A stretch of 64,000 bases of DNA from an uncultured Spirochaetota bacterium (GTDB lineage Bacteria; Spirochaetota; Spirochaetia; SZUA-6; Fen-1364): NCBI GenBank assembly GCA_963734545.1, contig CAVTHO010000007.1:608001-672000 (forward strand), read 5' to 3'. Below the pieces are notes generated by a model, which did not search any database, was not told the origin of the DNA, and was given only the letters and a program-made list of their open reading frames with translations. Made by a program: the position numbers and the translations under genes. Positions 2,828 through 44,061 of the stretch are shown one piece after another (position 1 is the first letter of the stretch; each line of letters begins with the position of its first letter).

Positions 2828-5523
2828 TCAGATCCGCCTTCTCGATGTGATTCCACGCTGTAGTGGAACTCGTTCTGGTTGATCGTGAACTTCAACTCTT
2901 CGCCCGGGCGGTGGTCCCACAGGGCCATGCCCAGCGGCGAGAGGTATGAGATGACGTTGCGGCTGGGATTCGACTCCCAGGGCCCCAGGATGACGTACTC
3001 CTCGGGCTGACCGCTCTTACGGTTGTTCAGGCGCACCCGGGTGCCGAAGGCGATGCGGTCCGTCTTCACCTCGTTCTCGTTGAAGATCTGGGCCTGCTGC
3101 ACCTCCTCCTTGAGCCGCGAGGCGGTGACCTTCAGCATCTCCTGCTTCTCCAGGGCGGCCTTGTACTCCGCGTTCTCCCGCAGATCGCCCTTGGCCATGC
3201 GCGACGCCGATCTCCTTCGAGTTCTCGGGGATCTCCACGTCGATGACGCGCTTGAGGTCCTGCTGCTTCTTCTCGAAGCTCGCGCGTGTCACCAGGAGCC
3301 CCAGGCTGACCTTTTCCGCGCCCGGCTCGCCGAGGAAGTGGAAGTCGGGATGCTTCTCCTTGATCCGGTGCTTGAGCTGGATCTTGATGGACGGGATCGA
3401 GCTCCTTCACGTCGTCCACCAGCGTGTACAGGCGCGTGATGGAATCCTGGTCCGCGGCCATGAGGAACTCCAGGAGCTTGCCCTTCGTCGAAGAGGAACT
3501 CCTGGATCTGGCGGTTCGTCTTCCGGTTGGCGCTGGCGTTCTGCTTGTTGGCGATGTCGCGGTAGGTGATGTCCAGGAGGTGGATGAGGCCGATGTAGAT
3601 CTTCTCCCGGGAGATGTTCATCCTCTCCAGCCAGCGCTCGCCGAGGAGGTTCTTCGCGATCCAGACGAACGCGTCCCGCTGCTCGCGGTAGCGGGAGACC
3701 ACGCCGGTGAGCATGCCGCCCAGGGCGTCCCAGAGGCGAGTCGCCACCAGCTCGTCCACGATGAACCGGTTGGGGAACAGGGCGAACAGCCGCGTGAATA
3801 TCGACGGCCAGTCCGTCGATGTTCTTCTTCACGGCCACGAGGAAGTCCCGCCGCAGCTCGGGGTCCTCGATCGCGGGAGAAGGTCTCCTCGAGCTTCTCG
3901 ATCTTTCCGAACAGCTCCTCGAAGCTCGTCTGCACGCCGATCGAGAGGAAGGGGTACAGGGTGACGATCTTCTGCAGCAGCAGCCAGCTGCGCGATCACC
4001 GTCTCCGAGACGGCCGTGTAGCCCTTGAGGAAGCCGGTGAAGTAGGCGAACATCTCGGTGAACCAGTCCGAGTCCGGCTCGGCGTGGCCGGCCTGCGACG
4101 TAGTCTTCGATCGTCTTCACGCGCTCGAAGAAGCCCTTCTCCGCCTTGAACTTGTTGTACGTCTTTTCCTCGAAGGAGATGGGCTTGTCCCGCACCATGA
4201 ACTGGTCGATCTTGTCCGGGAGATTGCCGAACGCGGAATCCTTTTTCAGGATGGAGCGGGCCTCCGTGTTCCACCGCGACCATTCCCCGCGGTGAGCACG
4301 TCCGGCACGAGCTCGGCCTTGATCTTCTTCATGTCCGCGAGGTTCCCGAAGCTCTTGATGATCGTCTTCAGGGCCCAGGCCGGCGTCTTCCTTGACCTTG
4401 CGCGGCGAGCTCTTCCTTCGGCAGGGTCCGCTTGAGCACCCAGATGTGCTCGGGGGAGAGCACCTCCAGGGCGCTGACCGCCATCTTCAGCGACATCTTG
4501 TGCGACGTCTTGTTGGCGAAGTCGATCGTGAACGTGTCGTCCTTGCTCGCGGAGATGCGGCCGATGCCCCAGGTCCGATGGAACACGTAGTTGCCCGTGT
4601 CGAAGCCGATGTGCTTCTCGAAGTCGGCGATGGCCTCGTGGACGTTCCGCCAGTTCTGCGTGAGGTTGGAGATCTTGATGTATTCCTCCAGCTGGCTGTG
4701 CGCGGCGTACTTCTCGCGGTAGCACTCGATGATGTCCTTGCGCGCCGCGTTGTTCTTGGAGTCGTAGGCGAGGATCTTCTTCAGTATCTCGATGGAGGTG
4801 TTCCAGTCCTCCTTCTCCTTGTAGTGCGGGATGAGCGTGACCAGCAGGGAGGCGGCGCGCTCGCCGTTGATGGCGCGCGCGATCCGCCCCTCGATGTGGA
4901 AGAAGAAGTCGATGTCCTCGGGGCTGAGCTTGATGAGCTTGTCCCACAGCTCCTTGACGCTCGCGAACTGCTTCTTGTTGATGAAGCGGTGGATGGCCTT
5001 CTTGTAGTAGTCCACCGCGGCGGGCATGTCCCGTCCTGCTCGCGCTTTTCCCCGAGGATCTTGACGATGTCCGCTTCCTCGTAGTCCACGCGGATCAGGC
5101 GGTCCCAGATCTCGAGCTTCTTCGCGCTCCTCGTCCCGGTTCTCGTAGCACTCCCCGAGGGTGCGCAGGGCGTACTTGTTCTCCCCGTATTCCAGGATCC
5201 GCTCCGCGAGGTACTCCACGACGTTCCACTTGTGGTTGTCCATGAAGATGCTGATGAGCATGATCAGGTTGGTGTCGTCCACCAGCTCGCGGGAAAGGGC
5301 CAGCACCCCGGAGAGGTACAGGGCGATGATCGAGTTGCTCGTGTGCTTGAGGTGCTCCCCGGCGAGCTCGCGGACTTCCTCCGCGATCCCTTCCGCGCGC
5401 GCCCTGCTCGATGAGCGCGTCGAGGTCCTTGAAGTTGGTGATCGAGTAGCTGTTGAGGGTCGCCCGCGTCCACTTCTCCTCGTTGAGCAGATCGGTGATC
5501 GTCTTCAGCAGTTCCGTTGCCAT
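2828..5523 (-). CDS. greA: Spirochaete-type long GreA (N-terminal helical extension plus C-terminal GreA domain), multiple frameshifts
   Basis: N-terminus MATELLKTITDLLNEEKWTRATL is typical of treponemal GreA. C-terminus has GDLRENAEYKAA, ILGPWES.P..NVISYLSPLG. Split over about 7 ORF fragments. Confidence 0.9.
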
Positions 5524-34607: not shown

Positions 34608-34672
34608 GGAGTATTTGTAGTTGAAAGGCGGCAATTTGTAAAGCAATCCGCCTCCGTGCTATACTGGCGGTG

Positions 34673-36595
34673 ATGGGAAGCACTGACTACGCGGCCCTGT
34701 TCGCAGAGGCGCTCGAGGCCGGCAGGAAAAGAGACTATCCGCGGTCCATCGAGCTGCTGACACGTATCGTGGGAAGCACGGACCGCTTTCCACAGGCCCT
34801 TCTTTACCTGGGCCGCGCCTATCACGCCATCGGCGACTATTCACGCGCCGCGCAGGCGTTGAACTTCTACCTCCGCGGCAGGCCTGACTCCGTGCCGGGA
34901 AATTTCTTCCTCGGGCGCGCGTACATCGCACTGGAAGCGTATCCTGCCGCGGTCCGCCACCTGAGACGCGCCGTCGAGGGCGACGCCGGCTTTGCCCCCG
35001 CCTATGGACTCCTCGGGCTCGCATGTCTGAAGGCGCGAAGACCCGACAAGGCCATCTGGTGGTTCGCAAAGTCACTCGCCATCGATCCACAGAACAAGCG
35101 TCTGCAGGTCGGCTACCTCAATACCGCCCTGGTGCTGGCCATACGGCTCTTCTACCGTGGAGAGCTGATCGATGCCGCCCGACTCTTCACCGAAGTGCTC
35201 GAGCAGAGACGCGCCAGCATCCTCCCCCACTTGTACCTGGCGACGATTTACCGGGAACTTGGCAGGGACAATCTCGCCCTGTACCACATGGACGCCGCTT
35301 CTCAGATCTCGCCGCAGGATCCGTTCCTGCATCTGCAGAAAGCCGTGATCCTGCTCGCACAGGGCGAGAAAGCTTCGGCGGCCGAAGAGATCCGCATCGG
35401 GACGCAGCTCCTCAAGAGCGCCGGCAGTCCGGGAGGATCGCCCGAAGACATCCTCAGGTTCATCACCATCAACCTGTTCAAGGAGAAGCGCTACCGGGAG
35501 ACCGTGTACTACGGCACAAAGCTTCTCAAGGGCGCATACGACGACCCCCAGCTGCACGCGATTGTCGCCGAGGCCTACCGCAACATGGGCGAGCTTCTGA
35601 AGGCGAAGAATCACTATACGCGGGCCATCGAGAAGGATCGCGCGTCCCGAGAGCTCCGGTACGGCCTGCTGGCAGTCCTTTGGGAAAGACGGGAGTTCGA
35701 ACCTCTCCTGTCCGAAGCGGCGCGTATCCTGCAGGCTGACCGGGCCGACGGCCCCGGACGGTATTTCCACAGCCTGGCGCTTTCGCGCACGGGCGCGGCA
35801 ATCGAGCAGGTGCTCGCCGAGCTTCAACAGCAGGTGAAAGCCCGAGGTCCGGACCCCGTGCTCATGGCGGAGCTCGGGGCTGCGTATGTGCGCGCCGGTC
35901 TTCCCGAGCTCGCGGAAGGCTGGTACGTGAGGGTCTTGAAAGTCGCTCCGCCGGACGCGGAGGTCCTCCTGTCCCTCGCCGGAGTGTACAAATCCCTCGG
36001 CAGGCAGGATAGGCGGGGAGAGACATACCGTGCGTACCTCGAGATCCATCCGGAAGACCGCAAGGCGCGCCGCCAGCTCGTGCGCATACTTCTGGAGCTG
36101 GACTCCTTTGCCGATGCCGCCGAGCAGATTGCCATGCTGCTCCCGCTGGAACCGAACAATGTCAAGCTCAAATCGACCCTTGCCGTCTGCTACCGCCGCA
36201 CGGGCAGATTCCCGGAGGCGCTCGTGCTTCTCAAGGACCTTCTCGGAGAGTCTCCGGACTCGCAGGAGCTCATCAAGGCCGCGGTCTTCTGCCTGGACAA
36301 GATGGGGGCACGCGCCGTGGGGGTGCGGGCGCTGGAAAGCTTCATGAAGCAGCACGGGGAGAACCTTTCGCTGATCCTCATGCTCGGAGTGCTCCAGTAC
36401 CAGGCGAGCTCTCTCTCGAAGGCCGCTGAAACCTTCCGCAAGGCACTATCGCTGTCCCCGAAGGACTGGCGTGCCAATCGAAACCTGGGCATGGTCTACA
36501 GGAAAATGGGCAACGATGTATTCGCGGACAAGTTCCTGGCAAAGGCCGCCGAGTACCGCGCCGCGGTGGAGGCGGCCGTGTCCGAGGCGCCCTGA
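34673..36595 (+). CDS. Large TPR-repeat protein
   Basis: Many consecutive TPRs (ALLYLGRAY, AYGLLGLA, ANRNLGMVY). Confidence 0.85.
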   Translation: MGSTDYAALFAEALEAGRKRDYPRSIELLTRIVGSTDRFPQALLYLGRAYHAIGDYSRAAQALNFYLRGRPDSVPGNFFLGRAYIALEAYPAAVRHLRRAVEGDAGFAPAYGLLGLACLKARRPDKAIWWFAKSLAIDPQNKRLQVGYLNTALVLAIRLFYRGELIDAARLFTEVLEQRRASILPHLYLATIYRELGRDNLALYHMDAASQISPQDPFLHLQKAVILLAQGEKASAAEEIRIGTQLLKSAGSPGGSPEDILRFITINLFKEKRYRETVYYGTKLLKGAYDDPQLHAIVAEAYRNMGELLKAKNHYTRAIEKDRASRELRYGLLAVLWERREFEPLLSEAARILQADRADGPGRYFHSLALSRTGAAIEQVLAELQQQVKARGPDPVLMAELGAAYVRAGLPELAEGWYVRVLKVAPPDAEVLLSLAGVYKSLGRQDRRGETYRAYLEIHPEDRKARRQLVRILLELDSFADAAEQIAMLLPLEPNNVKLKSTLAVCYRRTGRFPEALVLLKDLLGESPDSQELIKAAVFCLDKMGARAVGVRALESFMKQHGENLSLILMLGVLQYQASSLSKAAETFRKALSLSPKDWRANRNLGMVYRKMGNDVFADKFLAKAAEYRAAVEAAVSEAP

Positions 36596-36626
36596 AGGCG
36601 TGGAGCGCGGGGCCGTTCGGCTGCCG

Positions 36627-36660
36627 AAAAAAAACGGCCGGGTCTTTGTTCCCCGGCCGT
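36627..36660 (-). terminator. Intrinsic terminator of the cfpA operon
   Basis: Stem ACGGCCGGG/CCCGGCCGT followed on the minus strand by T8 (plus-strand A run 36627-36634), 24 nt after the ppdK-like stop. Confidence 0.8.
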
Positions 36661-36683
36661 CTTCTCGAAAGCTATGAACGATT

Positions 36684-39326
36684 CTAGGCGCCGGCCTTCT
36701 CCAGGTTGATCTGGGCAATTGCCAGCTTGGAAAGAGGTACCTGATAGGGAGAGCAGGACACATAGTCCAGTCCGGCTTCCATGCAGAAGCGGATGTTGTC
36801 CGGGATTGCTCCATGCTCCCCGCACAGTCCCACCTCGAGATCCGGCCGGGTCATCTTGCCTCTCTTCACGGCCATTGCAATCAGCTCCTTCACCTGCGGA
36901 TTCAGGTACTGGAAGGGATTGCCTTCCAGAAGGTCGAACTGGGTGTAGTCCGGCATGAAAGTGTTGAAATCATCCCGCGAGAGACCAATGGTCGTCTGGG
37001 TGAGATCGTTGGTGCCGAATGAGAAGAACTGGGCGTAGTGTGCAAGCTGGTCCGCGCCGAGCGCGGCGGCAGGCAGCTCCACCATGGTGCCGATCTTGTA
37101 GGGAGCAGCTTTTGCCTTGAAAGACGCCCTGACATCGCGTTCGACGTCCGATAGCCCGCGGATCTGTTTTCCCTCGATCTTCTTCCCATAGATGATGAGC
37201 TTCAGCTCATTCTCGTTCATGATGATCGGGATCATGATCTCGGGCTCCACGCGCACCCCTTCCTTCTTCAGGGTGTAGACGGCCTCGAAGATCGCACGGA
37301 CCTGCATCTCATAGATCTCGGGATAGGAGACGGCGATGCGGCAGCCGCGATGCCCCAGCATCGGGTTGAACTCGTGCATCGATTCGCTGCGCAGCCTCAC
37401 GTCCTTCTCCGTCAGCCTCTTGGCGCCCTTTTTCCCCGCGTTGAGATAGCGCATGAAGCGCTCCAGCTCCTGGTCGTTGTGAGGCAGGAATTCGTGCAGG
37501 GGGGCGTCGAGCAGCCGGATGATCACCGGATAGCCTTCCATGATCTTCAGCAGCTTGTAGAAGTCGGCTTTCTGCATGGGGAGAAGCTTGGCGAGGGCTC
37601 TCTTGCGCTCTTCCGACGAGTCGGAAAGAACCATCTCGCGGAACACGTTGATCCGTTTCTCATCGAAGAACATGTGCTCCGTGCGGACGAGCCCGATTCC
37701 TTTCGCGCCGAACTTGCGCGCAAGAGCGGCGTCCCGCGGTTTGTCCGCGTTCGCCCGCACGTGGAAATCCGGCACGTACTTCTCCACCAGGGCGAGGAAC
37801 TCGAGCATGCCCGACTCCTCGGGATCCGGTTCGATGAGCTCCGCCTTGCCGATGTACATCGACGGGGCGCCGTAGAATGGCACATTGAGGGTGATGTAGT
37901 CCCCTTCCTTGATGACATAGCTGCCCACCGTGGCACGGTTGCCCTTGATCTTCATGTCGGGCTTCACGAGGGACACCTTGCCGTACTGCCGCGCAACAAC
38001 CGATGCGTGGGCAGAATAGCCGCCCTCCGTGGAAAGGACGCCGGTGGCGACCTCGATTGCCTTCACGTCCTCCGCAAACGACGAAACCAGGCACAGGATC
38101 AGCTTCGTGTCCAGGCCCTTCTGCTGCGCGAGCTTGTGCGCCTCGAGAAGCCCGTCCGTCGTGAAGTACACTCTGCCGATGGCGGCGCCGGGCGCCCCCG
38201 TGATGCCGCCGGTAAGGACCGGCATGCCCTTGACAGTCGCGAAATCGATGATGGGATGGAGGATCTCGTTGAGCTGGCCCGGCTTGATCTGTTTGACCAC
38301 GTAGCGGTCATCCACGACCTTCCGCGAGTAGAGATCCAGAAGAAGCCGGATGTCCGCCTGGGTCGACTTGGTCATCACGGAGCGCTGGTCGATCAGCCAG
38401 AGGCGCTTGTTCTCCACGGTGAATCGAATGGAGCGGATTTCCTTGAAGTGGTCTTCCACCTTGTGCGCGATCTTTTCGAGCTCCGCGTGGTAGTTCTTCG
38501 AGAAATTGGCGATGTTGGAACCGCTCGTGCCGATGGCATTGAACTTGTTCTGGTAGTATTCGCCCTGGATTTCCTTGTCTCCGGTGACGATGTTGCGGGT
38601 GTAGAACTGACCGTTGGATGAATCCTTCCCGTAGTTTCCGTACACCATGGGCTGAATCAACAGCGCCGTGTCTTCCTGGTTCTGATCGGTGATGGCCAGG
38701 AGGTGGCTGATCCGCGTGAGGGCAATCTCGAGCTGATCGAAGGGATCCATGAAGTAGCCCTTGGGAAGCATTGCCTTGTAGCGCTCGATGCTCGCCTTGC
38801 GCTTCTTTGCGTCCATCTCCGAGCTGAGCTCCACGTCGAGCTCCTTGATGGCCTGCTTCAGGGATTTGGCCTCCTTCTCCTTGTTTTCCAGCTCCGCGAT
38901 GGCCATCTCGATTTCCAGGCTGCCGCGCGTCAGGAATTGAAGCTCGTGCCAGCCGAAGTTTTCCCCGACGAACCGGTTGAATCCGGGGAGCGTTTTGTCG
39001 GTGAGGCCGAAATTGTGCATTGTCGGGTACGATGCGATCACGAGGTTCGGGCTGACGACGATCTTCACGAGCATCGGATTTTCCGCGTCGCCGAAGGCCT
39101 TGCCGGTGAGCTTTGCCAGCCGATCGAACCAGGGGCGGAGCGCGCCCCAGATGTCGAAATCCTCAAGATGCGCCGCCACATCGGCGTCGATGATGAACCC
39201 GGGAAGTATGGGGAGGTCGAGGTCGGCGAGCTCCATGGCCAGACGTCCCCGAATGCCGATCCTCTCCAGGATCGGTGGTTTCACGTTCGCTTCGCCCTGG
39301 TCAAAGAAGTGGATGTTCTTCTTCAT
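36684..39326 (-). CDS. PPDK-like PEP-utilising protein with degenerate ATP-grasp domain
   Basis: GGYSAHASVVAR (phospho-His), GIGL.RTEHMFF, EFNPMLGHRGCR, FSFGTNDLTQ and CGEHG are intact. N-terminal nucleotide-binding motifs are substituted. Confidence 0.85.
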   Translation of the reverse strand: MKKNIHFFDQGEANVKPPILERIGIRGRLAMELADLDLPILPGFIIDADVAAHLEDFDIWGALRPWFDRLAKLTGKAFGDAENPMLVKIVVSPNLVIASYPTMHNFGLTDKTLPGFNRFVGENFGWHELQFLTRGSLEIEMAIAELENKEKEAKSLKQAIKELDVELSSEMDAKKRKASIERYKAMLPKGYFMDPFDQLEIALTRISHLLAITDQNQEDTALLIQPMVYGNYGKDSSNGQFYTRNIVTGDKEIQGEYYQNKFNAIGTSGSNIANFSKNYHAELEKIAHKVEDHFKEIRSIRFTVENKRLWLIDQRSVMTKSTQADIRLLLDLYSRKVVDDRYVVKQIKPGQLNEILHPIIDFATVKGMPVLTGGITGAPGAAIGRVYFTTDGLLEAHKLAQQKGLDTKLILCLVSSFAEDVKAIEVATGVLSTEGGYSAHASVVARQYGKVSLVKPDMKIKGNRATVGSYVIKEGDYITLNVPFYGAPSMYIGKAELIEPDPEESGMLEFLALVEKYVPDFHVRANADKPRDAALARKFGAKGIGLVRTEHMFFDEKRINVFREMVLSDSSEERKRALAKLLPMQKADFYKLLKIMEGYPVIIRLLDAPLHEFLPHNDQELERFMRYLNAGKKGAKRLTEKDVRLRSESMHEFNPMLGHRGCRIAVSYPEIYEMQVRAIFEAVYTLKKEGVRVEPEIMIPIIMNENELKLIIYGKKIEGKQIRGLSDVERDVRASFKAKAAPYKIGTMVELPAAALGADQLAHYAQFFSFGTNDLTQTTIGLSRDDFNTFMPDYTQFDLLEGNPFQYLNPQVKELIAMAVKRGKMTRPDLEVGLCGEHGAIPDNIRFCMEAGLDYVSCSPYQVPLSKLAIAQINLEKAGA

Positions 39327-39348
39327 TCTTGTCCTTCCCTTTCAAATA

Positions 39349-40425
39349 TCAGAACAGGTTCAGGATCGCGCCGACTTGCGCCTTGAGGAAAGCCTCGAAC
39401 ATGTGGCTGGCGCCCTGCCGGAGATAACGCTGGAGCTTGGCCACGTCACGGATGTCGTCTCCCGCCACGGCGATCATGATTGCGCTCCCGTGCTTCACCT
39501 TCCCCCATTTGAAGAGGGTGTTGATGTCGTGGATGCGCTCTCCCTCGTAGAATACGTACACGTCGAGGCCCGGGTACTTGGTCGTATAGCTCTGGATGAT
39601 CTTCTTCCACGCCTCCACGTTGCCGTTGTGGAAAAGCTCGTTCGTCACGGGAATGGAGTACATGGGAGTCATCTTCTTCGGGGCGCCGGAAGGAGCCGCG
39701 GCCGCCGGAGCGGCCGCGGGCGCCTGTGCGACCGGGGCTTGCGGGAACGCGGCACCGGAGGCTGGCACAGCCGCGGCGGCAAGCGCCAGGTCCGCTGCCG
39801 CTGCAGCGCGGGAAGGGCGTTCCTTTGCGGCCTTTCGGGCTCCCCTCGCGGGTGCGGGAGCAGGAGGGGGTGCCGGCTGCTTCTTCTGGACGAACTTGCC
39901 CTTTGTCAGCGCGGCAGGCGTCTTGAGCCTGGCCCCCTCGATGAGCGCGATGAAGAGTGATATCCCATCCTGGTATTTCTTGTCGCCGTCTGTTTCACCA
40001 AAGGCGCCGGCAAAGACCGTTACCAGCTCGTTTTTCTTCAGGATCCTCACGCCGTCCCAGTGCGAGCGGTTCTTGGGGTTCACCACCACCATGCCGAGCT
40101 CGGGATGGGAGTAGGCGACTACCATGTCGATGGCGCGCCAGGTCGCCACCGTCGCGGTGAGGGCGTCGAAGTCCTCGAAGTTCTCCGCGAGGTTGTGGGA
40201 TCGGCACGCGTAATGATACTTGTCCACCAGGAGTGCGTTCAGCGTGGGAGGCACCTGCCTCGGCTCGATCGTTTTGTCGGCAAGGCACTCGCTCAGCGTG
40301 TCCGCCAGGTTGCGCCTGCGCTCGAACTCCCCGATGACCTGTGAAATGAACTTGAAGTGCTTGAGCGAGCGGTTGAAACCTTCCCGCGTGCTGAGCTCTT
40401 CAAATGCATGGAGTTGTTCCGCCAT
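39349..40425 (-). CDS. Conserved hypothetical protein with C-terminal HPr-like domain
   Basis: N-terminal domain, Ala/Pro linker, then MTPMYSIPVTNELFH...NTLFK...HGSAIMIAVAGDD. RBS AGGGG. Confidence 0.75.
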   Translation of the reverse strand: MAEQLHAFEELSTREGFNRSLKHFKFISQVIGEFERRRNLADTLSECLADKTIEPRQVPPTLNALLVDKYHYACRSHNLAENFEDFDALTATVATWRAIDMVVAYSHPELGMVVVNPKNRSHWDGVRILKKNELVTVFAGAFGETDGDKKYQDGISLFIALIEGARLKTPAALTKGKFVQKKQPAPPPAPAPARGARKAAKERPSRAAAAADLALAAAAVPASGAAFPQAPVAQAPAAAPAAAAPSGAPKKMTPMYSIPVTNELFHNGNVEAWKKIIQSYTTKYPGLDVYVFYEGERIHDINTLFKWGKVKHGSAIMIAVAGDDIRDVAKLQRYLRQGASHMFEAFLKAQVGAILNLF

Positions 40426-40452
40426 CTGTCTTTCCCCTTTGACCGTAAATGA

Positions 40453-40482
40453 AAATGGTGACCCCCGGGAGGGTCACCATTT
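40453..40482 (-). terminator. 12-bp stem-loop between cfpA and the downstream gene (partial terminator or mRNA stabiliser)
   Basis: AAATGGTGACCC-CCGGGA-GGGTCACCATTT, followed by TCATTT on the minus strand. Confidence 0.65.
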
Positions 40483-40497
40483 GATTCCCCGATTTCT

Positions 40498-42525
40498 TCA
40501 GATTTCTCTCAGCCCGACGTCACCGCCCTTGCGGGGACGACCTCTTGCTGCCTTGGCCGGCCGGCCGCGGCGTCGCGGTGCCACATCGACGACTCCCTGT
40601 CCCGCCGCCTTGGACGACTTGGCGTCCGCTCCGGGAACGTTGAGCATGTCGAGGTATTCGGACTTCGTGGTCTGCGGGGCTGCGGTCTCATCCGGGGTTG
40701 CCGCGAACGACTGCGCGATGTCCGCGCGGACGGTCGAGCGGCGGCGCGAGAACGAGGCGAATGCCGCGTCCTGGAACCCTTTCGACACCCCGTAGAGGAA
40801 CTCATTGAGGACGTTCGCCATGCCGTCCAGCGTGGCTTTCTTCCTCTTGATGGAAGTGATATTCACGTCCAGCAGGAGGCCCGGCTGGATGTGGTACGGA
40901 TTGATCAGGTACTCGAAGGCGAGGAACTGCTTCTCGAGGAACGAAAGGCGCTCCTCCATGACGCGGCGCTGGATCGGGTAGCGGTAGCCGTAGAGCTTCT
41001 GCAGCTTGTCCCGCATCATGATGATCCGCCGCTTGATCTCGTCCTTCTCCGCGATATAGGTGCGGTTCATGCGCTCCACGTCCGTGTCGCCCGAGCGGAC
41101 AAACGTCACCTCGCTCCATGACTTCTCGATGTCCTCGTACAGCGGGTCCCCTGTCTTCGCCTTGATTCTCCGCTTGATCTTTCCCTTGAGTCTCTTGGCA
41201 AGGTCATTGAAATCGACCACGCCCTTCAGGAACTTCGAGTCTTCGTACACCATTTCCAGCACGTCCCAGAGGTGCTGGATCTCGATCTCGAAAGTCTTGG
41301 CCTGTACGTCGTAGGACTTGCGCTCCTCGAGGAGCTGCGCCTGATCGTAGTATTTCAGACGGATTGCATAGCGCTCGTCCGGCAGGTGGTCAAAGTCGGT
41401 GTCCTCGTACTCGCGCAGGACCAGCTCGCGGGCATTCTTGAGGTTCTCCACGTGCTGGTAGCCCATCTTGGAGGTATCCAGGATCGAGGTGATCGAGTTG
41501 ATTGCCGTGTTGAATCCGCGGTTCCTGATGTTCTCGATGTCGATGATTCTCTTCAGATTCTCGCGGATGTTCACCGGGTCGTACTCTTCAGGATCGATCT
41601 CTGCCCGGAGGCCTTCGACCTTGTCCATCAGGCTCTTTGCGAAGTAGGAATACCGCTGGGACTTCGGGTCATCCTTCTCGTCGGAAGTGAACTTCTCCAC
41701 CCTCTTCATCTTCTCGAAGAGGATTTCGCCGTCACTCAGCTCTTCCCTTCCCTCGTCGATGACCTGGTCCTTGAGCTTCTCGATCTCCTTGTCAATGAGG
41801 TCCGTGATGTTCTTGGAGATCATGTCCTTGATCAGGAACTCGACCGTAACCTGATAGTGGAAGATGGGGCTGATGAGCTCCGAGTCGAGGATATTGACGG
41901 AGAGCTTCACATCCGTGACCGTCTTGGGCTTGTTGGGGTTGTCCTTGAACGAGCACTTCACGATCGAATACGCGTTTTCTCCGCGAATGAACGCACCGAC
42001 GTCCGTCTTCTGCCGCAGCAGGGAGTTGGTGAGGTTCTCAAGGTCGTTCACGCCCCTCTGAATATGGCCCTGCAAGTGGCCGTACATGTTGACGATTGAT
42101 TTCTCGATTTCGCCCGTATTGAACTTGTCAATGCCGCCGACCTGGTCCAGAAGCGCCGCGATCTCCTTGGGAGTGTAGCGCGCGAGAGACTTCATCTCTT
42201 CCTTGTCTATGAAGTTCCTCACCTTCTTCACCATTTCGTCTTCCGACGTGACGATGAAGCGGTTCATCATGTTCTGGTAGTTCTGGTTGAAGTAGTTGTA
42301 TAGCTTCTCCTTGATGCCGCCCATGATGTCGAGTTTTTCAGCGACCTCCTTGGGCAACTTGGAGGTAATGTGATTCATCACTTTGTCTACTTCTTCGCTC
42401 ATCAGGAGGTCAACCTCGGCCTGCTGATCACGGAACTCCTGGGCTAGCGAGTTTCGCGACCCGACCGCGCTCGGCTTTTCCGGGTGGAACACATTCGGGC
42501 TTTTCGGAAGGTCAATGGCAGCCAT
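40498..42525 (-). CDS. cfpA: Cytoplasmic filament protein A
   Basis: N-terminus [30 protein letters not shown] and [17 protein letters not shown] match treponemal CfpA. 675 aa, strong AAGGAG RBS. Confidence 0.93.
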
Positions 42526-42557
42526 AGAAGTCTCCTTTTCTCAGTTTGTTCAAACCT

Positions 42558-42586
42558 AGTAAACCATAAAAGACTATCTCTGTAAA
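42558..42586 (-). promoter_or_regulatory. Candidate sigma70 promoter of cfpA
   Basis: Minus strand TTTACA-17bp-TTTACT in an AT-rich divergent intergenic region. Confidence 0.35.
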
Positions 42587-42663
42587 GCACATTTTTTTTC
42601 TCTCTTCCATTTTACCCACATTTGGTGCATCCTACAAGTACTTTATTCCAAAAGGGGGGCCTT

Positions 42664-44061
42664 ATGGGAGCCTGGAAACGCTTTCTAGCCGCTCTTGCGC
42701 TGTGTGCCGTCCTGGCGTCGCCCGTTGTCGCGGACGTCAGGAAGGACAACATCGACGTGATCATCGCCCTGGACAAGTCCCTCTCCATGGAGAACAAGAT
42801 AGGCGGTGTCAGGGAGTGGGTCAACTCCTCGATAATCGATCAACTCCTGATCCCGGGGGATACTCTCGTCGTCGTGGCGTTCTACGGGAAAGCAGACGTC
42901 ATCATTTCCCATACAGTCAAGGATAATGCCGATAAGAAGGCCCTTCAAGCCATCATCTCGAAGATTAGAGGGAATGGACGTTTTACCGATATTGGCAATG
43001 CGCTCGATGTCGTGCGGGCACAAGTGACTGACCGACAGAGCGATGGGCGGGAGAAGTACATTCTTCTCCTCACGGATGGGATACAGGAAGCGCCTCCATC
43101 GAGCAAGTACTACACCAAGGACGGCAAGTTCAACCACGAGTTCCTCGCCAATACAAAGACGATCCAGGAGAAGGGCTGGAAGATCATGATCCTGGGAATC
43201 GGCACTGACACTGCGGCAAAGGACCTCGCCCACGAGTTGAAGGGCACGTACAACGAAGTCACCGAGAGCGCGACAGCAGGCTCACTGGCGGAGACAACCG
43301 GAGCCTTCTTCGGCACCATCACCGCGGAAGGCGGTGTGCGTGTCGGCGGCGTATCCGCCGACGGCTCGAGCAAGCTCGCCCTCACGCTCAAGGCGTCCGG
43401 GCTGACGAATGACGCGAGCATTACGCTGGACTCCGTCACGGCCCGGATCGGAAACCGCGAGATCCCCAATGTCCTTCCCGCCCCTTTCAAATTCGGCGTC
43501 AAAAAGGAGGGGCCCACGCATGTCAGCGTGCCATTGCGATTCCCCACGGATCTGCCGCAGGGCCCTGCCACCGGTGCGCTTACCTTCTCCTTCGGCTCGG
43601 GAGCCGCCTTCTCCCCTGCAGAGGCAAATGTCTCGTTCGTCGTGAACAACTGGCTGCAGAACAATCTCATTCTCCTCATCTGCGCGGCGGTCATCGTTCT
43701 TCTTCTCGTGGCGTTCCTGGTCATGGTGGTCTGGCGCCTGACGCGGGGAAAGCCTCTTCAGTTCGCTTTGACAATCGACGGGGAGACCGTGGGCGAAGAT
43801 CCCGTTTCCCTGTCTGCAGGCCATGAGATGTATCTCAACGAAAACGCCGGCGTGTTCTCCCTCGTCGCCCACAGAAACGCCAAGTCTCTGGCCCGGTTCA
43901 CCGTCAAGGACGCCAAGCTTCTTCTCGGTGTGCTCAAAGAGGATCGATTCCCCAAGCTGAAGGAGGTGCCGCCCGACGCGCGAGGACATACATTCGTCGT
44001 CCGCTCGGAGAAAGGCGGAAACCTGTCGTTGAAGGTCCAGTCGAAGGAAAGGACGAAGTAG
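42664..44061 (+). CDS. Membrane-anchored VWA-domain protein (Tp0750-like)
   Basis: Signal peptide, IDVIIALDKSLSM, RFTDIG.AL, LLLTDG.QEAPP, TM near aa 350. Confidence 0.8.
   Translation: MGAWKRFLAALALCAVLASPVVADVRKDNIDVIIALDKSLSMENKIGGVREWVNSSIIDQLLIPGDTLVVVAFYGKADVIISHTVKDNADKKALQAIISKIRGNGRFTDIGNALDVVRAQVTDRQSDGREKYILLLTDGIQEAPPSSKYYTKDGKFNHEFLANTKTIQEKGWKIMILGIGTDTAAKDLAHELKGTYNEVTESATAGSLAETTGAFFGTITAEGGVRVGGVSADGSSKLALTLKASGLTNDASITLDSVTARIGNREIPNVLPAPFKFGVKKEGPTHVSVPLRFPTDLPQGPATGALTFSFGSGAAFSPAEANVSFVVNNWLQNNLILLICAAVIVLLLVAFLVMVVWRLTRGKPLQFALTIDGETVGEDPVSLSAGHEMYLNENAGVFSLVAHRNAKSLARFTVKDAKLLLGVLKEDRFPKLKEVPPDARGHTFVVRSEKGGNLSLKVQSKERTK

What the first reader, a model, noticed from the sequence alone, without database searches (positions are those of the whole stretch)
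38380..39326. PPDK homologue with a systematically degenerate nucleotide-binding domain
Seen vs canonical PPDK motifs (C. symbiosum numbering from memory): GGKG (K22) -> GIRG; VSVRSGA..SMPGMMDT (R92) -> VKIVVSPNLVIASYPT; SW...RA..YR absent; AQGEDVVAG -> NKFNAIG; DMEFT (D321/E323) -> SIRFT; LQTR (Q335) -> IDQR. Scaffold motifs (LPGF, MVYGN, FYTRN..TG) persist and the ORF has no frameshift, so this is not decay or sequencing error. The His loop GGMTSH is GGYSAH, so the regulatory Thr is replaced by Ser. Inference: the protein can autophosphorylate from PEP but cannot use ATP/AMP/PPi, and a ppdK annotation would wrongly imply gluconeogenic or PPi-dependent glycolytic flux.
Basis: partly seen in the sequence, partly recalled or inferred. 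Interest (0 to 1): 0.75.

Follow-up and report, generated by a model that had tools for sequence, protein, structure and literature searches.

The report
Filament-linked PPDK look-alike of spirochaetes
This gene looks like the glycolytic enzyme pyruvate phosphate dikinase but has a rebuilt ATP-binding part, and it always travels with the genes of the spirochaete cytoplasmic filament, so it is probably not a normal dikinase, which matters because the syphilis bacterium has only this version.

Summary
ORF 36684-39326 (-), 880 aa, is a full-length PPDK homologue below NCBIfam's PPDK cut-off (664.8 vs 843.45 bits). The ATP/Mg residues are replaced (K22R, R92V, D321S, E323R, Q335D). The catalytic His and all PEP/pyruvate-site residues are kept.

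This is remodelling, not decay. The replacements are fixed across the family (R92V in 64 of 64), N-domain dN/dS is 0.078, and the fold is still PPDK-like.

The gene is third in a cfpA / TP0747-like / PPDK-like cluster. In 401 spirochaete genomes, all 131 with the TP0747-like gene carry a divergent PPDK-like gene, and 129 of these also have cfpA. Of the 128 found by the N-domain profile, 117 have a second PPDK-family match. This genome has a canonical ppdK elsewhere, plus pyruvate kinase.

The family includes T. pallidum TP0746, where it is the only PPDK homologue. One lineage lacks the N-domain altogether.

Best reading: a PEP-charged phospho-His protein working with the TP0747-like protein at the CfpA filament. 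What the rebuilt domain binds is unknown.

The scan noted this family before, on another genome (e1-5048468). I found no paper on it in the held library.

The parts
36684..39326 (-). PPDK-like ORF, 880 aa, of the TP0746/TDE0844 type ('putative PEP-binding protein')
   Evidence: TIGR01828 scores 664.8 bits, below the 843.45 cut-off. It aligns end to end with solved PPDKs (1vbg E 9.7e-152).
38292..39326 (-). N-terminal domain (residues 1-345): ATP-grasp fold kept, nucleotide/Mg site remodelled (R26, K88, V90, F131, F262, S299, R301, D313)
   Evidence: Residue mapping. Family-wide states. AF2 model has pLDDT 91.4. Foldseek top hit is PPDK 5jvn, E 2.4e-23, TMq 0.84, 20-23% identity. dN/dS is 0.078.
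37827..38291 (-). Central swivel phospho-His domain (residues 346-500); the catalytic His440 codon is at 38007-38009
   Evidence: Pfam PEP-utilizers on residues 409-481. His is kept in 64 of 64 relatives.
36687..37826 (-). C-terminal PEP/pyruvate-binding domain (residues 501-880) with all catalytic residues
   Evidence: PF02896 E 1.4e-73. R548, R604, E750, N773, D774 and C835 (equivalent to R561, R617, E745, N768, D769 and C831) are kept in 64 of 64 relatives.
39332..39340 (-). Shine-Dalgarno-like AGGGAAGGA ahead of the ATG; only 22 nt separate it from the stop of the upstream gene
   Evidence: Read directly from the sequence.
39349..40425 (-). TP0747-like gene (358 aa): N-domain with an HPr-like fold at residues 72-166, an Ala/Pro-rich linker, and a very conserved C-domain (residues about 250-358)
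   Evidence: No hit in the local Pfam copy. The Atlas places it in clusters carrying Pfam PF27497 TP_0747_N. Alignment A2. Model. VIA Z 8.0-8.3 to HPr.
40498..42525 (-). cfpA, the cytoplasmic filament protein A gene (675 aa)
   Evidence: NCBIfam NF040882 scores 1165.3 bits against a cut-off of 500.

Best explanation
The ORF is not a working pyruvate phosphate dikinase. It belongs to an old, separate clade of PPDK paralogues, mostly or wholly spirochaetal, that also holds T. pallidum TP0746 and T. denticola TDE0844. These are encoded with the cytoplasmic filament gene cfpA and a TP0747-like gene. SHOWN: the three-domain PPDK architecture is present. The catalytic His and the PEP/pyruvate site are intact. 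The canonical ATP/Mg/Pi ligands are replaced by a different residue set that is itself conserved, and two lid segments are deleted. All three domains are under purifying selection. The gene co-occurs almost perfectly with the TP0747-like gene and with cfpA. Most genomes carrying it have a second PPDK-family gene. INFERRED, in order of decreasing confidence: (1) the protein still charges His440 from PEP, releasing pyruvate. (2) It does not run the AMP + PPi <-> ATP + Pi half-reaction. (3) The phospho-His state, or the phosphoryl group itself, is used in the filament system together with the TP0747-like protein, by analogy with PTS Enzyme I, which has a His domain plus a PEP domain and acts on HPr. 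The rebuilt N-domain would serve as a docking or acceptor site. The analogy rests on two points: the HPr-like fold in the partner, and a natural variant (G295) that lacks the N-domain and so has Enzyme-I-like architecture. The acceptor and the cellular output (filament assembly, anchoring, cell division) are unknown.
For: Residue replacements. Family-wide in 64 full-length proteins from 79 loci: K22->R in 63 (1 gap), S90->K in 63, R92->V in 64, Q277->F in 64, E323->R in 56 (H 3, K 3, G 2), Q335->D in 49 (E 13, N 2). His455 and six PEP-site residues are kept in 64 of 64. Scores fall below the PPDK cut-offs. The fold is kept. Median dN/dS is N 0.078, His 0.055, C 0.055 over 36 pairs. Gene cluster: cfpA lies upstream in 63 of 79 loci, and the other 16 have under 1.4 kb of upstream flank; the TP0747-like gene is present in 70 of 79. 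Phylum scan of 401 genomes: cfpA in 132, TP0747-like in 131, and a divergent N-domain in 128, plus G121 and G156 (divergent copies) and G295 (N-domain-less). So 131 of 131 TP0747 genomes have a PPDK-like gene, and 129 of these also have cfpA. 117 of the 128 have a second TIGR01828 match. The own genome has a canonical ppdK and pyruvate kinase. On a tree built from the His and C-domain columns only, a 30-row clade with SH-like support 100 holds every divergent row and none of the 53 fully canonical rows. TDE0842-0844 are repressed together (PMC3914990, passages and Table 5). The partner's residues 72-166 match whole HPr/NPr chains at Z 8.0, 7.7, 7.1, 6.6 and 6.2. These are the top five of 48,161 chains, and the next row scores 5.6. 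In family f27 and in G010, the TP0747-like and PPDK-like genes stay adjacent while cfpA lies elsewhere.
Against: No biochemistry exists for any member. Basic residues persist at the old phosphate site (R26, K88, R301, R315), and Q240 is invariant, so some phosphoryl or nucleotide ligand may still bind. In G088, whose protein falls in the T. pallidum cluster, this is the only PPDK homologue and no pyruvate kinase was found. That would fit a working enzyme, although the genome does have GTP-PEPCK and OadA as another route from PEP to pyruvate. The HPr likeness is at fold level only. Profile-profile probability is 1-3%, no conserved His sits at the His15-equivalent position, and Z near 8 is within the range the tool calls common. 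Co-occurrence counts come from related genomes and are not independent. One deep clade member is labelled as a Proteobacteria MAG.
Confidence: 0.55

Rival explanations
1. It is a working PPDK with an unorthodox nucleotide site. R26 would replace K22, K88 would replace R92 from two residues earlier on the same strand, and R301 would stand in for the Mg ion.
For: The fold is kept and the N-domain is under purifying selection. Basic residues are retained. G088 (T. pallidum cluster) has no other PPDK homologue and no pyruvate kinase. Papers treat TP0746 as the glycolytic enzyme (PMC10013896 passages).
Against: Both metal ligands are replaced by non-ligands, D321 is variable, and two lid segments are deleted. 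117 of 128 genomes have a second PPDK-family match. The gene's distribution tracks cfpA and the TP0747-like gene. G295 has lost the whole N-domain yet keeps the gene beside the TP0747-like gene. G088 has PEPCK and OadA. G130 and G175, which also lack a canonical copy, have pyruvate kinase.
Confidence: 0.12
2. It is a PEP-driven phosphotransferase for a small-molecule substrate bound in the rebuilt N-domain, in the way rifampin phosphotransferase reuses the swivel-His chassis. On this view the link to cfpA is regulatory or historical only.
For: The superfamily has precedents for new substrate domains (rifampin phosphotransferase, PMC4844700 passages; Foldseek rows 17-22). The N-domain has a conserved, polar and basic signature of its own.
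Against: Co-occurrence with two filament-cluster genes is near perfect across 77 or more genera. No transporter or metabolic gene is conserved in the neighbourhood. The N-domain is dispensable in G295.
Confidence: 0.15
3. It is a pure pseudoenzyme: a structural bridging or anchoring piece of the filament ribbon with no phosphotransfer at all.
For: It is tightly linked to cfpA. A reference-list title (Izard 2004, seen only as a citation in PMC3398590) reports unidentified bridging and anchoring components on treponemal filaments.
Against: The catalytic His and every PEP/pyruvate-site residue examined are invariant in 64 of 64 relatives. dN/dS of those domains is 0.055. A purely structural role would not need them.
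Confidence: 0.08
4. It is a decaying gene or a sequencing artefact.
For: None beyond the low PPDK_N score.
Against: The 880-aa ORF is intact. Full-length relatives occur in 64 of 79 loci, and the rest are cut by contig ends or assembly breaks. dN/dS is 0.03-0.18. The N-domain model has pLDDT 91.4.
Confidence: 0.01

Closest known systems
Pyruvate, phosphate dikinase (EC 2.7.9.1; TIGR01828; solved: C. symbiosum 1dik/1kbl, maize 1vbg, Flaveria 5jvj/5jvn)
   Same: Same length and three-domain order. The alignment runs end to end (E about 1e-150). The swivel His and the PEP/pyruvate TIM-barrel site are identical in the catalytic residues. The N-domain fold is the same (TMq 0.84).
   Different: It scores below the equivalog and PPDK_N cut-offs. 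K22, R92, D321, E323 and Q335 are replaced, and the lid segments are deleted. It forms a separate clade from canonical PPDKs, including those of spirochaetes. It is encoded with cfpA rather than alone. Most genomes carrying it have a second PPDK-family match, and this genome has a canonical ppdK.
T. pallidum TP0746 and T. denticola TDE0844 ('pyruvate phosphate dikinase' or 'putative PEP-binding protein')
   Same: Same clade and same signature (GIRG, K-x-V, R at E323, E at Q335). Same position after cfpA and a TP0747/TDE0843-like gene. The G088 protein is 99% identical to the cluster named T. pallidum.
   Different: They are 55-57% identical overall to the window's protein. The G088 genome lacks a canonical PPDK and pyruvate kinase, whereas this genome has both.
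PTS Enzyme I (TIGR01417) acting on HPr
   Same: It has a phospho-His domain plus a PEP-utilizers_C domain charged by PEP. The neighbour gene encodes an HPr-like fold. The N-domain-less variant in G295 has Enzyme-I-like architecture.
   Different: It scores only 113 bits against a cut-off of 341.7. It has no Enzyme I N-terminal HPr-binding subdomain. The partner has no sequence similarity to HPr and no conserved active-site His. Genuine ptsI and ptsH genes exist elsewhere in these genomes.
Rifampin phosphotransferase and PEP synthase (same swivel-His superfamily)
   Same: They show that the chassis can be re-used with one substrate domain exchanged (PMC4844700 passages; Foldseek E 4e-07 to 5e-06).
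   Different: Those enzymes keep a working ATP-grasp site (K22 is essential in RPH) and change the other domain. Here it is the reverse.

Membership tests
Pyruvate, phosphate dikinase (TIGR01828 equivalog) | Whole-protein score at or above the curated cut-off (843.45 bits) | tested here: not met
   664.8 bits. The genome's other copy scores 947.7 bits.
Pyruvate, phosphate dikinase (TIGR01828 equivalog) | Three domains in order: ATP-grasp, swivel His, PEP/pyruvate barrel | tested here: met
Pyruvate, phosphate dikinase (TIGR01828 equivalog) | ATP/Mg/Pi-site residues K22, R92, D321, E323 and Q335. Numbering is read from the 1dik alignment. Their roles are recalled from Ye et al. 2001, which I saw only as a citation; the K22 role is stated in PMC4844700. 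| tested here: not met
   They are R, V, S, R and D here. The same holds family-wide.
Pyruvate, phosphate dikinase (TIGR01828 equivalog) | Catalytic His455 and PEP/pyruvate-site residues R561, R617, E745, N768, D769 and C831 | tested here: met
   All present, and kept in 64 of 64 relatives.
Pyruvate, phosphate dikinase (TIGR01828 equivalog) | Catalysis of ATP + pyruvate + Pi <-> AMP + PEP + PPi | not testable with these tools
   Needs an enzyme assay.
cfpA-linked PPDK-like clade (TP0746/TDE0844 type) | Signature G-x-R-G, K88-x-V90, F262, a basic residue at the E323 position, and D or E at the Q335 position | tested here: met
cfpA-linked PPDK-like clade (TP0746/TDE0844 type) | Encoded downstream of cfpA and a TP0747-like gene | tested here: met
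   Window genes 40498-42525, 39349-40425 and 36684-39326 all lie on the minus strand. The same order is seen in 63 of 79 loci.
cfpA-linked PPDK-like clade (TP0746/TDE0844 type) | Falls inside the clade on a tree that leaves the N-domain out | tested here: met
   30-row clade with SH-like support 100. This is FastTree only, with no bootstrap.
PTS Enzyme I (TIGR01417) | Score at or above 341.7 bits and an N-terminal HPr-binding domain | tested here: not met
   113.3 bits, and only the C-domain matches.
HPr (PF00381), tested for the neighbouring TP0747-like protein | Sequence-profile match and a conserved active-site His15 | tested here: not met
   No Pfam match. hhalign probability is 1-3%. No conserved His lies near residue 85. 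The fold-level match is Z 8.0-8.3, rmsd 2.0-2.4 A, over 79-81 of 83-85 residues.

The most novel reading that the evidence does not exclude
cfpA, the TP0747-like gene and the PPDK-like gene would encode a PEP-fuelled, Enzyme-I/HPr-like phosphorelay dedicated to the spirochaete cytoplasmic filament ribbon. PEP would charge His440, and the signal or phosphoryl group would pass through the HPr-fold TP0747-like protein to control filament assembly, anchoring or cell division. That would tie the cytoskeleton to the glycolytic state. As a corollary, T. pallidum would have no true PPDK and would make pyruvate from PEP by another route, such as GTP-PEPCK plus oxaloacetate decarboxylase.
Probability: 0.15. 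Interest if true: 0.85.

Novelty: new variant of a known kind. Interest (0 to 1): 0.62.

Why it matters
There are three reasons. First, annotation: JGI, UniRef and several papers call this family PPDK, so metabolic reconstructions of spirochaetes credit them with a PPi-linked PEP/pyruvate step that this protein probably does not perform. For the syphilis agent it is the only PPDK homologue and no pyruvate kinase was found, so the last step of its glycolysis may need redrawing. Second, cell biology: the CfpA filament ribbon has no known partners or regulators in the papers I could see. Two strictly co-inherited genes are concrete candidates. Third, enzyme evolution: this would be a case where the swivel-His chassis keeps the PEP half-reaction and re-purposes the ATP-grasp half, or in one lineage discards it.

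Tried and rejected
Complex prediction. I ran PPDK-like residues 1-520 with the whole TP0747-like protein. It returned ipSAE 0.00 and 0.00, verdict 'no answer'. This is no evidence either way. The C-domain of the PPDK-like protein and CfpA were not tested.

HPr homology by sequence. hhalign of three slices of the TP0747-like alignment against 25 spirochaete HPr sequences gave probabilities of 1.3-2.6%. Pfam at E up to 10 gave only ubiquitin at E 0.08. I first thought the invariant His266 of the C-domain might be the HPr-like His. The unbiased structure search then placed the HPr-like fold in residues 72-166, where no His is conserved. The C-domain matched only generic alpha/beta folds at Z 5.6 or below.

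Expression. Two peat metatranscriptome runs each held 0.05 of the sampled words. When laid, their contigs were mostly 90-95% alike. They covered cfpA and the conserved C-domain part of the ORF, and none bridged two genes. This gives no statement on expression or co-transcription of this locus.

Promoter and terminator scan of 36300-43000. It found 1 promoter-like site and 5 terminator-like sites, no more than in shuffles (means 2.1 and 6.5). None lies between the three genes on the minus strand.

Papers not held. PMC94976, PMC94139, PMC178068 and PMC2519799 were not available. I therefore could not check whether the published T. denticola cfpA mutant is polar on the two downstream genes, or whether the early cfpA papers mention them.

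Alignment slip. L057 was dropped from alignment A3 because its range contains a stop.

Decay or assembly artefact was rejected.
Full report
WHAT IS THERE. The finding lies in ORF 36684..39326 on the minus strand. The ORF is 880 aa with no internal stop. The finding's coordinates, 38380-39326, are residues 1-316. Pfam finds a strong PEP-utilizers_C domain (E 1.4e-73) and a weak mobile His domain. It finds only a sub-threshold fragment of PPDK_N: 24.3 bits against a cut-off of 27, on residues 274-324. NCBIfam's PPDK equivalog TIGR01828 aligns end to end but scores 664.8 bits against a cut-off of 843.45. Against solved structures the protein aligns over its whole length with maize and C. symbiosum PPDK (E 9.7e-152 and 4.4e-150).

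THE OBSERVATION. I numbered the 1dik alignment by hand. K22 becomes R26 and G21 becomes I25. S90 becomes K88 and R92 becomes V90. G101 becomes A98, M103 becomes Y100 and R135 becomes F131. Q277, E279 and D280 become F262, A264 and I265. D321 becomes S299, E323 becomes R301 and Q335 becomes D313. Q240, E271 and R337 are kept. Residues 212-215, 229-234 and 285-291 of the C. symbiosum enzyme have no counterpart. H455 is kept as H440, and T453 is S438. That these positions matter is recalled knowledge (Ye et al. 2001, which I saw only as a citation). The tools support it in part. The PDB holds K22A, R337A and T453A mutant structures of this enzyme. PMC4844700 states in the passages I read that Lys22 of PPDK was implicated in gamma-phosphate binding, and that the equivalent K22A kills rifampin phosphotransferase.

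NOT DECAY. A search with residues 1-360 returned 1128 proteins. The best 120 were all about 880 aa and 56-98% identical in this domain. Where named, they come from Spirochaetia MAGs and are called either 'putative PEP-binding protein' or 'pyruvate, phosphate dikinase'. From 79 genome loci I extracted 64 full-length proteins (the other 15 are cut by contig ends or assembly breaks). In these, the replacements are themselves fixed:
- K22->R in 63 of 64 (1 gap)
- S90->K in 63 of 64
- R92->V in 64 of 64
- Q277->F in 64 of 64
- E323->R in 56 (H 3, K 3, G 2)
- Q335->D in 49 (E 13, N 2)
- R135->F in 52
- D321 is variable
- T453 is Ser in 40 and Ala in 24

The catalytic His and R561, R617, E745, N768, D769 and C831 are kept in 64 of 64. 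Mean pairwise identity is 0.49 for the N-domain, 0.65 for the His domain and 0.66 for the C-domain. Among nine close relatives (36 pairs), median dN/dS is 0.078, 0.055 and 0.055 for the three domains. dS is about 1.0-1.1, so it is near saturation. An AlphaFold model of the N-domain has mean pLDDT 91.4. Its best structural matches are PPDK nucleotide-binding domains (5jvn E 2.4e-23, TMq 0.84, 20-23% identity), followed by rifampin phosphotransferase and PEP synthase. The domain is folded, constrained and rebuilt. It keeps basic residues (R26, the new K88, R301, R315) but loses both acidic or amide metal ligands and two lid segments.

A CANONICAL COPY EXISTS. The same genome has a PPDK at G000:C9:281389-284095 scoring 947.7 bits. 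It carries GGKG, VSVRSGA..PGMMET, AQGEDVVAG, DLEFT, LQCR and GGMTSH. In the assembly that gene is split by a one-base frame change (L001 3668-3687). This may be an assembly error. The genome also has pyruvate kinase (562 bits). No PDRP (PF03618) was found, in a genome that is 89% complete.

THE CONTEXT. Two genes lie directly upstream on the same strand. The first, 40498-42525, is CfpA, the cytoplasmic filament protein (NF040882, 1165 bits against a cut-off of 500). The second, 39349-40425, encodes a 358-aa protein with no hit in the local Pfam or NCBIfam copies. The protein Atlas places it in Spirochaetota clusters carrying Pfam PF27497 'TP_0747_N'. Only 22 nt, containing a Shine-Dalgarno-like AGGGAAGGA, separate it from the PPDK-like ATG. 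cfpA lies upstream of the PPDK-like gene in 63 of 79 loci. The other 16 loci have less than 1.4 kb of upstream sequence. The TP0747-like gene is found in 70 of 79. The literature matches this. In T. denticola, TDE0842 (cfpA), TDE0843 (hypothetical) and TDE0844 ('pyruvate phosphate dikinase, putative') are repressed together (PMC3914990, passages and Table 5). In T. pallidum, TP0748 is cfpA and TP0746 is 'Ppdk' on the same strand (PMC3373638 table rows).

DISTRIBUTION. I scanned 401 Spirochaetota genomes. TIGR01828 hits 275, of which 261 are over the cut-off. A profile of the divergent N-domain (A1, 23 sequences) gives a split distribution: 119 genomes at 312 bits or more, 9 at 241-266 bits, and canonical PPDKs at 192 bits or less. 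I fetched five of the nine intermediate genomes, and all five carry the divergent signature. CfpA is found in 132 genomes and the TP0747-like protein in 131. Overlaps:
- all three genes: 126 genomes
- every one of the 128 PPDK-like genomes has the TP0747-like gene
- two of them (G044, G333, both fragmented assemblies) lack a detected cfpA
- three genomes have cfpA only (G228; G286, a fragment; G312, cut by a contig end)
- 267 genomes have none of the three

Three further genomes have the TP0747-like gene and cfpA but fell below my profile threshold. On inspection, G121 and G156 carry divergent-type copies (587 and 601 bits). G295, a complete single-contig genome, carries a 586-aa version. It lacks the N-domain entirely and starts directly after the TP0747-like gene (L130 1474..3234 and 3231..4307). 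So 131 of 131 TP0747 genomes have a sub-cut-off PPDK-like gene, and 129 of those have cfpA. The genomes are related, so these counts overstate independence. Even so, the pattern spans at least 77 genera and includes whole genera lacking all three genes (for example g8, 0 of 29 for cfpA). In family f27 and in G010, the TP0747-like and PPDK-like genes stay adjacent while cfpA is elsewhere. 117 of the 128 genomes have a second TIGR01828 match. Eleven have only the divergent one.

A SEPARATE CLADE. A search of 1.84 billion cluster representatives gave 19,003 hits (1,949 at E 1e-30 or better). Of the best 150, I kept 123 with lengths of 780-1050 aa and dropped 27. I added six reference sequences. 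I scored five ATP-site positions in each. I then built a FastTree tree from the His and C-domain columns only, so that the trait's own columns are left out. A 30-row clade with SH-like support 100 contains all 17 rows with the R-K-V signature, 12 rows with 0-1 canonical residues and 1 row with 2. It contains none of the 53 fully canonical rows. The canonical PPDKs of spirochaete genomes G015 and G286 fall on the other side. Of ten deep members looked up by name, three carried an organism label: two Spirochaetota MAGs and one 'Proteobacteria bacterium' MAG. 'Spirochaete-only' is therefore likely but not established.

THE SYPHILIS AGENT. Genome G088 (1.1 Mb, one contig) has a single PPDK homologue at 608.5 bits. 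It carries the divergent signature: GIRG, LLKVVLSP, EVRFT, LIEQK. It lies after cfpA and a TP0747-like gene. Its product is 99% identical over the 360-residue N-terminal region searched to a 901-aa cluster named '[Treponema pallidum]'. NCBI calls that cluster 'putative PEP-binding protein' and UniRef calls it 'Pyruvate, phosphate dikinase'. No pyruvate kinase was found in G088 (0 candidates). It has an Enzyme-I-like gene (345.7 bits summed), a GTP-PEPCK (544 bits) and OadA (939.6 bits). A PEP to oxaloacetate to pyruvate route is therefore encoded. Papers treat TP0746 as the enzyme converting PEP, AMP and PPi to pyruvate and ATP (PMC10013896 passages; PMC8525777 passage). The other two well-assembled divergent-only genomes, G130 and G175, have pyruvate kinase.

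THE PARTNER PROTEIN. In the alignment of 26 TP0747-like proteins (A2), the N-domain (about residues 1-175) is moderately conserved. An Ala/Pro/Lys-rich linker follows. The C-domain (about residues 250-358) has long invariant runs (V-x-NELFHNGNVEAWK, LFKWGKVK-x-G). The AlphaFold model has mean pLDDT 78, with both domains confident and the linker not. Foldseek found nothing at E 0.001 or better, but its weak top rows were almost all HPr. VIA-align against 48,161 representative chains ranked HPr/NPr chains first to fifth. They scored Z 8.0, 7.7, 7.1, 6.6 and 6.2, with rmsd 2.2-2.6 A and 79-81 residues aligned, covering whole chains. All matched model residues 72-166. The next row scored Z 5.6. 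The tool warns that Z near 8 can reflect a common arrangement. There is no sequence support (hhalign probability 1-3% against 25 spirochaete HPr sequences). No His is conserved at the His15-equivalent position. This is a fold-level lead, not membership.

HOW IT MOST LIKELY WORKS. Shown: an intact PEP/pyruvate site and swivel His; a folded, constrained N-domain without the canonical nucleotide and metal ligands; and strict co-inheritance with the TP0747-like gene and cfpA. Inferred: PEP charges His440. The AMP/PPi half-reaction is lost. The phospho-His state or group is used with the TP0747-like protein in the filament system, in a way that resembles Enzyme I acting on HPr. The G295 variant lacking the N-domain shows that the conserved core of the family is the His domain plus the PEP domain next to the TP0747-like gene. 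I put about 0.85 on 'not a canonical PPDK, and a member of the filament-linked clade'. I put about 0.55 on the mechanism as stated. The rivals are a working but unorthodox PPDK (0.12), a small-molecule phosphotransferase (0.15), a pure scaffold (0.08) and decay (0.01).

NOVELTY. The scan had already noted this family on another genome (e1-5048468), with the same reading. I re-derived that reading independently. New here are the three-way co-occurrence counts, the tree, dN/dS, the N-domain-less variant, the HPr-like fold of the partner, and the alternative PEP-to-pyruvate route in G088. In the held library, searches for TP0746, TDE0844, TP0747/TDE0843 and related locus tags, and for cfpA together with dikinase, found only papers that list the gene as PPDK. 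None discusses an atypical ATP site or a link to the filament. Papers outside the library, including four I could not open, may bear on this.

Noticed in passing
L001 3668-3687 (G000:C9, about 283556-283575): In the assembly, the genome's canonical ppdK is split by a one-base frame change just before the PEIMIP motif. It could be an assembly error or a real pseudogene.
   Followed up: partly
L130 1474..3234 (-) and 3231..4307 (-) (G295:C1): A complete genome carries a 586-aa PPDK-like protein that has the His and PEP domains only, with no ATP-grasp domain. Its start overlaps the stop of the TP0747-like gene. The cfpA match in that genome lies about 160 kb away and is read through a TAA.
   Followed up: partly
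window 39349-40425 (-), residues 72-166: The TP0747-like protein's N-domain has an HPr-like fold (Z about 8) without HPr's active His. An invariant N-P at residues 116-117 ('INPKN') sits roughly where HPr has 'NGKS'.
   Followed up: partly
window 42622-44061 (+) and 34670-36595 (+): A VWA-domain membrane protein gene lies divergently upstream of cfpA, and a large TPR gene lies convergently downstream of the PPDK-like gene. Both are conserved in position in most related loci.
   Followed up: no
P0255 (representative library; cluster member named Spirochaetota MAG): In my alignment, one clade member shows Tyr at the catalytic His position and Leu at the Thr453 position. This could be loss of the His or a local misalignment.
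   Followed up: no
97 rows outside the 30-row clade: 46 of 99 other PPDK-homologue representatives lack one or more of the five ATP-site residues in my alignment. Many align only from about residue 220 onward, so this may be misalignment or further N-domain-divergent families.
   Followed up: no
P0392 (member of the P0254 cluster): A member of the divergent clade is labelled 'Proteobacteria bacterium' MAG. This could be a binning error or an occurrence outside the spirochaetes.
   Followed up: no
G286:C25:5815-6678: A genome of the same genus as G088 has only a cfpA fragment (374 bits, model positions 291-578). It has no TP0747-like or divergent PPDK-like gene, but it has a canonical PPDK and pyruvate kinase. 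This looks like joint loss of the module.
   Followed up: partly
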